Assembly (NCBI RefSeq): GCF_039654945.1 | Contig: NW_027361676.1 | Span: 49,290,001-49,354,000 of the forward strand | From: Dendrobates tinctorius | Taxonomy: Eukaryota | DNA length: 64,000 bases | Direction: 5' to 3' | Part shown: positions 48,201-51,200 of the stretch, piece by piece | Layout: every line of letters starts with the position of its first letter | Numbering within the stretch: position 1 is the stretch's first letter | Program-made: the position numbers

Positions 48201-51200
48201 TGTTTTCATTGAAGCTAGAACATGTTCCATTTATAGCTTAAACTCGCCCATTCAAATGAATAGGTCCACAAAAAAGAAAGTTGCAATATAGGGCTTGTCC
48301 ATTTGTCATCGACTAATGCTCGGAGAAGCGTGAGATACTGCCATCAATTTTTTGCGGATGCCACCAGTATGGTATAAATGACCAAAATAGGAGGAAAAAT
48401 GGTTACATATTTCAGCATGAGAAAAATAACGTATGAATTAGGCCATACTCTCTCCTGGAGGTTTGGTTTACAAAGAAAAATGGGGTCATGTCGGCTACAC
48501 AGTACACTTAGATGTCAATAGGGGTAGCGGTCACTGGGGAGCGCCAGTAAAGTAAGTGGCGTGGGGAATGATCTACTGCAGCTCCAGCCGTACACCTCCA
48601 ATGGAGGATAGTAAACTTGGACAAAGAGACTGAACGGTCAGCCGAGCGCTAGGAACACAAGGACAGACAATTGTTTCTTCTTTAGCCCACAACACGTTTT
48701 GACGGTAACCCCGTCTCCATCAGGTGGCAGTTTCCACCTGATGAAGACGGGGTTACTGTCGAAACGCGTTGTGGGCTAAAGAAGAAACAATTGTCTGTCC
48801 TTGTGTTCCTAGCGCTCCGCTGTCCGTTCTTTCTCCTTGTCCAAACACAATAAATCTAAACTCATACAGACAAATAGAGCGCTGCAACATCATCAGACAC
48901 GTTTTGTTACTTTTCTAAAGTTAGACATTTCAGAAGGTGACCTAGGTGGAATCACTGGAATACTTGTTTGCATGACGGCTGTAATTAGCTTAATGAAAAG
49001 AAACTGCAGTCTCCCCTAATTAATATGAATGTTCATAATTAATAAGCTATTTAAATAAAAAATTACCATCTTGTGTTAGCATTGCAGCCTGCTCCGACTT
49101 TACTTTTAAATATTGATTATTCTGGGTTTTTATTGTAAGATTTAATTTCCCTTAAGTTTAATTAAGGATGTGTTCCTTTCACTGTGAAGATGCCCGATAG
49201 CGACCTAGTCTGCGTCTTGCATCCCTCCTCCCACTCGCTGCAGTTGGTCTTTATTATTCTCTGCAATAAAATGTTTTCCGTGAAACCTATAAATGGAACA
49301 ATGCAGGTGGAAGAATATATGGAAGCTTTTTGTGCACGCAGGCGCTAGTAAAATTGTTCTGGACAGATTTCTTAAAGCGTAAAAGGCAAATTGCTTCACA
49401 TTTTAAAACTTTTGACTGCCTACTTTTATGCCATGAAACATCATTCATCTGTACATTTAGTTCTCACAAATCTGCTTTAATATTATTTGCCTTGATATAA
49501 AAAGTTGTAAAACTGTAGAGTATGCAACCTTGTGTCCAGGACAATTTATATGTCTCAGGTTGTTTTTAAAGGGGACCTGTCAGCAGGTTTCTGCTGTGTA
49601 ATCCTAGGACAGCATAAGGTAGGTGCTGAGACACACCATAAGTGACACATCCCTAAAAAACTGCGCTGTTGTTTCCTTACAGTGAGTGTTTTATCACCAG
49701 GAGATAACCATTGCCTGGCTAGCCACTTTTCAAGTGGCTGGATTATGCCCCCTCCTCTGATTAGCAGCTCAATAAACAATGTACATAGAAAGCTGAGGTG
49801 TGGGTGGGGTTAGCATTCTGAGCTCTGCTGCATGCTACATCTAAAAACTCAGTGTCACAACCCCTGCACCCAGTAAACTATGTGGAATCGCTGGAATCAG
49901 GGTGTCTTTTCCTACATAATGCTGTTCAGATGAGGTAGCAAACACTTGGTGACAGATTTCCTTTAAATACAACCTAATTTTCTCTTTAACCTTTAAATAG
50001 CAAAAAGATTGGAATAGGAAAAATATTCATCTAAAATGCTGAAGTGATAGAAATTAGCCAAAATTACCTACAGTATGAAATGAATGTACAAGTGCAATAC
50101 ACTTTGACTGTACTACGAACATGTGTGTGTATGATATACAGTACCGTGAAGCATTTTTCCCCCAACTGCTTGCAACTTTTCTAAAGTAAGCTTGGTTTCA
50201 CAAATAAAAGTTTGAATAGTTTATTTTTATCAATTAACAAAATGCAATGTGAATGAACAACAGAGAAATCTAAATTGGAACTTGGTGGGTAGATTGCTGC
50301 AAACATCTTGGAGAGCTTACCTGAGACCTTCCTGGGCTCTCTCGGGGCCATGTCATTACATTCAAGACCTCTTGCTCTTCTTTAAACTGAAGCTGATTCT
50401 TGATGACATTGGTATGATGTTTGCGATCGTTGTCCTGCTGCGAAATAAATTGGGATATCTGCACTGAGTACTCTATTTATCTTGAACAAATTCCCAGCTT
50501 CATTTAATGAAACTTGCAATGAACCTCGTCGATGCTTCTCTTTTTGCTTGTATACATTCAGTATTGTACCATTCTCCAGTAATTCGGAGAAAAAACTGCT
50601 CTCCGTTTGCAAATAAATATTTCACATTTTGACTCCTCAGTTCAGAGCACCTGCTGCCATTTTTCTTCACCGCACTTCTTATGGCTTCATGCTTGTCGAG
50701 TCACTTGGCTTCCTTCCCATGTCGAATGTATGGTATTTGTCCACATTTCTTCTTTGAAGACCACTTCTAGCCAGACTTTCCCAAATATTTGATAGGTGTA
50801 GCTTATTCCCACCGGTAGCTGGCAGTTCTTCAGCGTTGGCCCTTTTCTTTAAATGGATAATATAGTAATTTGCTGAAATAAATAATCTAAATGTTTTTGG
50901 ATTTGACAATTGTGGGCAAAACTCTGATACTTTCCATATATTGTACATATAGTCTACCCTAGAAGCACAGGAGTAGTCACAGGTCCATAAATTGACCACA
51001 AACATTAGATAAAAAGGCCACTTGATTAAGGTGATGCTAGACCAAAAAACAATTCAAATAACAAAAATCCATATAAATTGGTGTTTATCTTTATTAATAA
51101 ATATTAATAATCCCAATTTCATGTAGTGATTTTATTACACAAAGATAAATAATGCATGTACAGAAGATGAAATTACATTGCAAACTACGCCTGACTATGC

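What the first reader, a model, noticed from the sequence alone, without database searches (positions are those of the whole stretch)
48617..48844. Second, unrelated fold-back with its axis at hammerhead helix I
Seen: the arms begin exactly at the helix I 5' strand (CCAC), with a 6-bp spacer, and the sequence is unrelated to the 12.3-kb case except for the core. Inference: two independent families with the same geometry point to a ribozyme-anchored hairpin-forming step in integration. I cannot tell whether this geometry is already described.
Basis: partly seen in the sequence, partly recalled or inferred. Interest (0 to 1): 0.68.

Follow-up and report, generated by a model that had tools for sequence, protein, structure and literature searches.

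The report
Head-to-head hammerhead retroelement relic
A 228-base DNA palindrome made of two mirror-image copies of the ribozyme-carrying tail of a Penelope-like retroelement, a known by-product of how such elements insert, with the unusual detail that the mirror axis lies right at the ribozyme's edge.

Summary
Window 48617-48844 is a 111+6+111 nt palindrome with 92% complementary arms. The right arm starts at the 4-nt helix I 5' strand of a minimal type-I hammerhead (HHR) of the kind described in Penelope-like elements (PLEs). The left arm carries a decayed copy.

The arms differ at 9 of 111 positions, so this is an old event and not an assembly artefact. No PLE coding sequence, tandem copy or other family copy lies in the window.

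Best reading: a relic of one PLE-type insertion that laid down two short 3'-terminal copies head to head. Such head-to-head inverted copies, with palindromic junctions and a self-priming hypothesis, are already in print. So are "dual min-HHRs on opposite strands" and extension of both target strands in vitro.

I did not find in print an axis that abuts helix I. Here it occurs in 2 of 2 HHR-bearing palindromes. The other 3 HHR copies are not palindromic, and 4 of 6 tight palindromes carry no HHR. The ribozyme's own helices cannot be what paired at the axis. With n=2 and no genome-wide census possible, "ribozyme-anchored" remains a lead.

The parts
48617..48727 (-). Left arm: the inverted copy, whose sense strand is the minus strand. 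It carries a decayed copy of the minimal hammerhead at its inner end (about 48687-48727).
   Evidence: arm bounds. (91.9% identity to the right arm). (2 departures from the core boxes; helix III hexamer no longer palindromic).
48728..48733 (.). 6-nt spacer (CAGTTT) at the axis. Its two halves are not complementary to each other.
48734..48844 (+). Right arm: the sense copy, running from the helix I 5' strand to the presumed 3' terminus of the unit.
   Evidence: The length from helix I to the outer end is 111 nt, against 114 nt in the non-palindromic family C copy.
48734..48775 (+). Minimal type-I hammerhead motif. Helix I 5' strand 48734-48737; CUGAUGA 48738-48744; unpaired A 48745; helix II 48746-48760; GAA 48761-48763; palindromic ACGCGU 48764-48769; U17 at 48770 (predicted cleavage after it); helix I 3' strand 48771-48774(5).
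   Evidence: The homodimer fold forms the double-hammerhead pairing (-31.1 against 2 x -12.1 kcal/mol). The traits match those listed by Cervera and de la Pena 2014.
12157..12462 (.). The 12.3-kb comparison case: a head-to-head palindrome of another min-HHR family, with its axis in GAATTC at 12309|12310 and no spacer. Cores lie at 12277-12306 (-) and 12313-12342 (+). Effective arms are about 144 nt.
29304..29605 (+). Non-palindromic 302-nt min-HHR unit (family C). The core is at 29496-29524, and the 5' end lies 188 nt upstream of helix I.
15490..15789 (-). Second family C copy, 97-98% identical to the first. It has the same head and tail but different flanks.
2123..2237 (+). Family A min-HHR copy (core 2160-2188), 75% identical to family C. 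The similarity starts 37 nt upstream of the core.

Best explanation
The palindrome is the decayed relic of a single Penelope-like (PLE-type) retro-insertion. That insertion laid down two copies of the last ~111 nt of a min-HHR-bearing RNA, head to head.

Most likely sequence of events (inferred):
1. Both strands of an A/T-rich target were nicked.
2. Each nick primed reverse transcription from the same internal start site, about 100 nt downstream of helix II. This gives the two identical outer ends.
3. Both cDNAs ran to the same template end or stop, a few nt upstream of helix I.
4. The two 3' ends were joined and filled in, leaving 6 nt of filler here and none at 12.3 kb.

On this reading the hammerhead is a passenger. 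It marks the 5' edge of what was copied and is not the structure that paired.

Shown: the palindrome, the motif, the equal arm ends, the age, and the absence of coding sequence. Inferred: the two-primer route and the position of the RNA 5' end.
For: - The structure and motif are confirmed.
- The sense strands run outward from the axis, so the copies are head to head. This is the orientation 'most frequently observed' for PLE inverted pLTRs (passages). [quoted passage not shown]
- Both arms end at the same nucleotide, and the flanks beyond are unrelated. That fits site-specific internal initiation.
- Frangieh 2024 (text read) reports three relevant things for a lizard PLE protein. It cleaves and extends both target strands. 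It starts 111-118 nt into an ORF that begins at helix II. It has a second start site that accounts for a 30-40 nt 'tail'.
- Here the distance from helix II to the outer end is 99 nt in this family, 102 nt in family C and about 133 nt at 12.3 kb. The difference of 34 nt is tail-sized (coordinates).
- The arms contain element sequence only, with no mirrored host DNA.
- The arms differ at 9 of 111 positions (5 transitions, 4 in CpG context), so the event is old and the structure is not an artefact.
- At 12.3 kb the sequence is palindromic straight through the axis (GAATTC). Annealing of two like cDNA ends gives that directly, whereas a hairpin loop would give it only by luck (inference).
Against: - No PLE reverse transcriptase or GIY-YIG ORF was found among the 183 ORFs scanned. 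The only RT looks LINE-like.
- No target-site duplication abuts either palindrome. The best candidate is a 5-mer displaced by 12 nt.
- No other copy of this family is available, so the true 5' end of its unit is unknown.
- Extension of both strands is known from one in vitro study of one element.
- Nothing explains why the template would end at helix I. In Drosophila virilis Penelope, transcription starts 46 nt before a 75-nt intron whose 3' end abuts helix I. Family C here has its head 188 nt upstream.
- Four of the 6 tight palindromes in the window have no HHR, so other palindrome-forming processes act in this genome.
Confidence: 0.45

Rival explanations
1. Snap-back (self-priming) of a single cDNA. 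One strand was primed, and the reverse transcriptase reached the template's 5' end just upstream of helix I. The cDNA then folded back on itself with a 6-nt loop and copied itself.
For: [quoted passage not shown] The 6-nt non-palindromic spacer has the size of a hairpin loop.
Against: The 12.3-kb case has no spacer and is palindromic through the axis, which a loop gives only by chance. Self-copying would have to stop exactly at the cDNA-target junction to give equal arm ends with no mirrored flank. Pairing through helix I itself would give a different product, with a single HHR in the loop. The same authors noted that self-priming on a sense template predicts a tail-to-tail arrangement.
Confidence: 0.25
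2. DNA-level inverted duplication after insertion. A solo 5'-truncated min-HHR copy was turned into a palindrome by fold-back repair of a break, or by a replication template switch, without any reverse transcription.
For: Six palindromes with spacers of 25 nt or less occur among the 25 inverted pairs listed for this window, and 4 of them have no HHR motif. Palindrome formation unrelated to ribozymes therefore happens here.
Against: The arms stop exactly at what look like the element's ends and include no host flank. The same geometry recurs in a second, unrelated family.
Confidence: 0.15
3. Two independent insertions. A second copy of the same family landed in the opposite orientation exactly at the head of the first.
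For: PLEs do insert into their own copies (text). The 8% difference between the arms could reflect different source copies.
Against: This needs the same truncation point in both copies and a target within a few nt of the first copy's head. It also needs all of that twice, in two families.
Confidence: 0.05
4. A hairpin-RNA or miRNA-like gene, or a fold-back DNA transposon (MITE), that merely contains HHR-like letters.
For: Weak matches to miRNA-precursor models: best 21.7 bits, E=0.056, against a gathering score of 70. A read-through transcript would form a hairpin with a stem of about 111 bp.
Against: All Rfam matches lie far below gathering. The 12.3-kb palindrome matches more than 20 unrelated plant and animal miRNA models equally, so the models are scoring hairpin shape and not homology. 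No flanking duplication was found. The HHR motif is complete and specific.
Confidence: 0.05
5. An assembly artefact, such as a chimeric fold-back read.
For: PLE inverted structures are known to trouble assemblies (passages). Another palindrome in the window has 100% identical 409-nt arms.
Against: The arms differ at 9 of 111 positions, including 4 transversions. An artefactual fold-back would be near-identical.
Confidence: 0.02

Closest known systems
Inverted pseudo-LTR (pLTR) structure of endonuclease-containing Penelope-like elements (Arkhipova et al. 2013, PMC3846280; Craig et al. 2021, PMC8557442; passages read)
   Same: Head-to-head inverted copies, a short palindromic or overlapping junction, the HHR within the repeated part, and 5' truncation. 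The structure is interpreted as a product of the insertion mechanism.
   Different: There the inverted pLTR (about 180-220 bp) sits next to a direct pLTR and an ORF, and the junction lies at the pLTR 5' end. No link to the ribozyme was drawn, as the 2013 paper predates the HHR finding. Here there is no ORF or direct copy. The arms are only 111 nt, and the junction abuts helix I.
Minimal hammerheads of PLEs, including 'dual min-HHRs ... in opposite strands' (Cervera and de la Pena 2014, PMC4209133; parts 1-2 of the text read)
   Same: [quoted passage not shown] Thousands of dispersed solo motifs were reported in an amphibian genome.
   Different: The opposite-strand pairs reported there were about 100-700 bp apart. 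Here the two motifs are 6 bp apart, and 0 bp apart at 12.3 kb. No statement about the position of the axis was found there.
Both-strand cleavage and extension with internal initiation by the Anolis PLE protein in vitro (Frangieh et al. 2024, PMC11167929; parts 1-2 of the text read)
   Same: It supplies a route to two outward-facing tails at a fixed element position about 100-120 nt downstream of helix II, and a 30-40 nt 'tail' variant.
   Different: That work did not describe head-to-head products or where the cDNAs end. HHR cleavage was not needed for insertion, and no RNA-seq reads ended at the HHR cleavage site.
Non-LTR retrozymes: tandem type-I HHR repeats proposed as non-autonomous partners of PLEs (Cervera and de la Pena 2020, PMC7229834, passages; Li, Clavereau and Pollet 2026 preprint, abstract and passages)
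   Same: Short non-coding HHR-bearing units related to pLTRs, also found as dispersed 'monomers'.
   Different: Retrozymes are defined by head-to-tail tandems. None is present here. 'palindrom' and 'head-to-head' do not occur in either text; 'inverted' does not occur in the 2020 paper and occurs once in the preprint, in a passage I did not view.
Twin priming of LINE-1
   Same: The second target strand also primes reverse transcription, which produces inverted segments within one insertion.
   Different: Twin priming inverts one part of a single copy. It does not produce two mirror copies of the same segment.

Membership tests
Minimal type-I hammerhead of PLEs (min-HHR) | Conserved core boxes CUGANGA ... 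GAAA | tested here: met
   The right arm matches exactly. The left arm departs at 2 core positions.
Minimal type-I hammerhead of PLEs (min-HHR) | [quoted passage not shown] | tested here: met
   Helix II has 5 bp. An extra A is present in 7 of 7 copies from 4 families, and helix II sequences differ between families while still pairing. The traits are as listed.
Minimal type-I hammerhead of PLEs (min-HHR) | Minimal, palindromic helix III (positions 15.2-16.2) that allows a dimeric active form | tested here: met
   ACGCGU is present. The predicted homodimer forms intermolecular helices III and I (-31.1 against -24.2 kcal/mol for two monomers).
Minimal type-I hammerhead of PLEs (min-HHR) | Self-cleavage | not testable with these tools
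   No assay is available. Published min-HHRs cleave poorly in vitro.
Rfam hammerhead families | Score at or above the family gathering threshold | tested here: not met
   No hammerhead hit at gathering over the whole window, nor at E<=10 at 48400-49000, 12100-12520 or 29280-29640. The motif's helix III is 2 bp with a 2-nt loop, which may be why these models do not score it.
Penelope-like element insertion | ORF with a telomerase-like RT and a GIY-YIG endonuclease | tested here: not met
   0 of 183 ORFs scanned has GIY-YIG. The single RVT_1 ORF (36673-37626) best matches R2 and LINE-1 ORF2 chains. This locus is therefore at most a non-coding fragment or a non-autonomous relative.
Penelope-like element insertion | Head-to-head inverted copy with the HHR inside the repeated part | tested here: met
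Penelope-like element insertion | Target-site duplication, and a 30-40 bp tail at one end | tested here: inconclusive
   No duplication abuts the arms. A 5-mer recurs 12 nt into the right flank.
Penelope-like element insertion | Sequence similarity to a curated PLE pLTR | not testable with these tools
   No repeat library or eukaryotic genome collection was on hand.
Non-LTR retrozyme | Head-to-tail tandem copies of the HHR unit | tested here: not met
   No tandem repeat in 47000-50500, and no direct copy in the window.
miRNA precursor / hairpin-RNA gene | Rfam gathering score for a named family | tested here: not met
   Best hit 21.7 bits against a threshold of 70.
Fold-back DNA transposon / MITE | Flanking target-site duplication | tested here: not met

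The most novel reading that the evidence does not exclude
In this genome, head-to-head PLE-type insertions may form preferentially when the copied RNA begins, or the reverse transcriptase stops and switches, immediately 5' of the hammerhead. The ribozyme, or the protein holding it as a dimer, would then define the 5' boundary of the cDNA and hence the palindrome axis. That would give the PLE hammerhead, whose role is still called unclear, a structural part in integration.
Probability: 0.2. Interest if true: 0.6.

Novelty: new member of a known kind. Interest (0 to 1): 0.35.

Why it matters
The role of the hammerhead in Penelope-like elements is still described as unclear. In vitro, its cleavage is dispensable for insertion. 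How the characteristic inverted copies arise is also 'still undefined'.

A genome-wide pile-up of palindrome axes at the 5' edge of the ribozyme would tie these two open points together. It could be checked from sequence and transcript-end data alone.

If there is no such pile-up, this locus is just one more decayed PLE by-product. Its practical lessons would be two. Such palindromes draw spurious miRNA-model hits, and they are difficult for assemblers.

Tried and rejected
- **Rfam.** No hammerhead at gathering or at E<=10 at three HHR loci. The miRNA-model hits on the palindromes score generic hairpin shape, since more than 20 unrelated families hit the 12.3-kb case. I rejected them.
- **Other copies of this family.** blastn with word size 7 found none in the window, and both flanks are unique.
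- **Degenerate HHRs elsewhere.** A relaxed descriptor added only the left arm, plus 2 hits at noise level (simulated mean 1.6).
- **A PLE ORF** beside this locus, between the two family C copies, or at the RT locus. None was found.
- **Tandem copies.** None.
- **Target-site duplications.** None convincing.
- **A type-III-like hammerhead** that would use the axis hairpin as helix I. Rejected by inspection: the positions that would be 16.1 and 17 do not fit.
- **A covariance model of the seven copies.** The MAFFT alignment misplaced helix II, so I used a script descriptor instead and built no model.
- **Literature.** Searches for the specific geometry and term look-ups inside papers found no statement that the inverted junction abuts the HHR. 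The supplementary figures of Cervera 2014 on amphibian PLE HHRs, of Frangieh 2024 and of Craig 2021 may bear on this.
- **Not attempted.** The genome collection holds only bacteria and archaea, so I did not use it. A genome-wide census therefore stayed unchecked. I did not determine the organism. I do not take the contig for human, because min-HHR families were reported absent from mammals. No spliced gene model was examined.

Full report
**1. Observation**

The repeat finder reports arms 48617-48727 and 48734-48844, each 111 nt, 92% complementary, with 6 nt between them. These are the finding's coordinates. blastn of the right arm against the window returns only itself and the left arm (91.9% identity, E=4e-42), and 256-257 nt of each flank is unique. 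As single-stranded DNA the stretch folds at -118.4 kcal/mol, against -27.95 +/- 3.19 for 200 shuffles, none of which folds as well.

The arms differ at 9 of 111 positions (5 transitions, 4 of the 9 in CpG context). The structure is therefore old, and it is not a fold-back assembly artefact.

**2. The ribozyme motif**

The right arm reads as follows:
- CCAC, then CUGAUGA, then one unpaired A.
- A 5-bp helix II closed by G-C, with one G.U pair.
- GAA, then the palindromic hexamer ACGCGU, then U.
- GUGG, which pairs with the opening CCAC.

[quoted passage not shown] ViennaRNA predicts that two copies form that double hammerhead (-31.1 against 2 x -12.1 kcal/mol).

My descriptor finds 6 loci in the window with core plus helix II, against a mean of 0.14 (max 2) in 300 first-order Markov simulations. 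Four loci meet the full descriptor, against none in any simulation. Helix II differs in sequence between the four families yet pairs in each.

Rfam does not report a hammerhead, either at gathering or at E<=10. The left-arm copy departs from the core at two positions and has lost the helix III palindrome.

**3. Census of hammerhead loci in the window**

There are seven motif copies in five insertions:
- Family A at 2160 (+). Similarity to family C starts 37 nt upstream of the core.
- The 12.3-kb palindrome. Its effective arms are about 144 nt, and the axis lies in GAATTC with no spacer.
- Two 302-nt family C copies, at 15490-15789 (-) and 29304-29605 (+). They are 97-98% identical, with identical heads and tails in different flanks. 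Their heads lie 188 nt upstream of helix I.
- The present palindrome.

So 2 of 2 hammerhead-bearing palindromes have the arm starting 3-4 nt before C3, and 3 of 3 non-palindromic copies have heads further upstream.

If heads were spread evenly over the 188 nt seen in family C, two hits within about 8 nt would have a chance near 0.002.

Set against that, 6 of the 25 inverted pairs listed (of 39 found) have spacers of 25 nt or less, and 4 of these 6 hold no hammerhead-like motif even under the relaxed scan.

**4. Relatedness of the two palindromic families**

Beyond the core, they share the ACGCGU hexamer and an 8-nt box (TAAAGAAG) 6-8 nt after the predicted cleavage site. The rest is not significantly similar (95 of 500 shuffles score as well).

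**5. Surroundings**

No PLE coding sequence was found. 0 of 22 long ORFs, 0 of 100 ORFs in 15.8-29.3 kb, and 0 of 61 ORFs in 34.4-40.7 kb (+ strand) and 47-50.5 kb has a GIY-YIG domain. The one RVT_1 ORF (36673-37626) matches R2 and LINE-1 ORF2 chains and no telomerase (10 hits listed).

There is no tandem repeat around the locus. No target-site duplication abuts the arms; a 5-mer at the left edge recurs 12 nt into the right flank. The immediate flanks are A/T-rich by eye.

**6. Mechanism**

The sense strands run outward from the axis, so the two copies are head to head with their 3' ends outside. Both arms end at the same nucleotide, and no host sequence is mirrored.

The distance from the start of helix II to the outer end is 99 nt here, 102 nt in family C and about 133 nt at 12.3 kb (coordinates). 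Frangieh et al. 2024 (text parts 1-2) report four relevant results for a purified lizard PLE protein:
- It cleaves and extends both target strands.
- It initiates internally, 111-118 nt into an ORF that starts at helix II.
- It has two start sites, which explains the 30-40 nt 'tail'.
- It does not need hammerhead cleavage for insertion.

From this I infer one insertion event with both strands primed from the same internal site. The two cDNAs ran to the same end a few nt upstream of helix I, and the ends were then joined. At 12.3 kb they joined through a self-complementary terminus, and here with 6 nt of filler. A single cDNA snapping back is the main alternative.

In neither model do the ribozyme's helices form the axis. 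Snap-back through helix I pairing would leave one hammerhead in a loop of about 33 nt, which is not what is seen.

Why copying ended at helix I is not explained. In D. virilis Penelope, transcription starts 46 nt before a 75-nt intron (passages) whose 3' end abuts helix I. The template there would extend further upstream.

**7. What is known**

- Head-to-head inverted pLTRs with palindromes at the junction, and the self-priming hypothesis, are in Arkhipova et al. 2013 (passages).
- The 'inverted 5'-truncated copy' and HHRs in pLTRs are in Craig et al. 2021 (passages).
- 'Dual min-HHRs ... (~100-700 bp) but in opposite strands', and about 9,000 min-HHRs in one frog genome, are in Cervera and de la Pena 2014.
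- Retrozymes as PLE-dependent units are in a 2026 preprint (abstract and passages).

I found no statement that the junction abuts the hammerhead. The searches were made, with term look-ups inside papers. One relevant paper (Lunse et al. 2017) is not held, and supplements were closed.

**8. Verdict**

The locus is a new instance of a known kind of PLE by-product. The axis-at-helix-I coincidence is a real but thinly supported lead (n=2), and it could not be tested genome-wide here because no eukaryotic collection was open.

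Noticed in passing
window 33411-34433: A palindrome of about 1 kb. Its inner arms (33507-33915 and 33926-34334, 409 nt) are 100% complementary with a 10-nt spacer. No hammerhead motif is present. It is either very recent or an assembly fold-back.
   Followed up: partly
window 15490-15789 (-) and 29304-29605 (+): Two 302-nt copies of a min-HHR unit with identical heads and tails but different flanks, facing each other across 13.5 kb that holds no PLE ORF. This looks like a short non-autonomous unit with a defined 5' end 188 nt upstream of helix I.
   Followed up: partly
window 12350-12365 and 48771-48786: The two palindromic families share an 8-nt box (TAAAGAAG) 6-8 nt after the predicted cleavage site, although the rest of the arms is dissimilar.
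   Followed up: no
window 12240-12380: The near-perfect 12.3-kb palindrome draws E-values down to 1e-13 from more than 20 unrelated plant and animal miRNA-precursor models, all below gathering. This is a caution about covariance-model E-values on palindromes.
   Followed up: yes
window 26697-28262: A Tc1/mariner-like element with 164-nt terminal inverted repeats (97%). Its transposase HTH and DDE_3 parts lie in separate ORFs, so the gene is broken at least once. A second Tc1-type HTH ORF is at 1320-2027.
   Followed up: partly
window 9629-11697: hAT-like ORFs, with a weak BED finger and a hAT dimerisation domain, lie just upstream of the 12.3-kb palindrome.
   Followed up: no
window 36673-37626: A reverse-transcriptase ORF (RVT_1, E=4e-33) whose best solved relatives are R2 and LINE-1 ORF2 proteins. 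It is a LINE-type retroelement piece, not a PLE.
   Followed up: partly
window 15790-16898 and 58971-60162: A 1.1-kb dispersed repeat (87% identity) that abuts the head of one family C copy.
   Followed up: no
window 55800-58520 and 62410-63660: Two satellite-like arrays, with periods of about 372-389 nt and about 65-66 nt. N runs lie at 54662-54839 and 58548-58686 and were left as they are.
   Followed up: no
window 48223-48239 and 49284-49300: A 17-nt inverted pair (94%) brackets 1,078 bp that contains the palindrome. It could be chance or the ends of an older element.
   Followed up: partly
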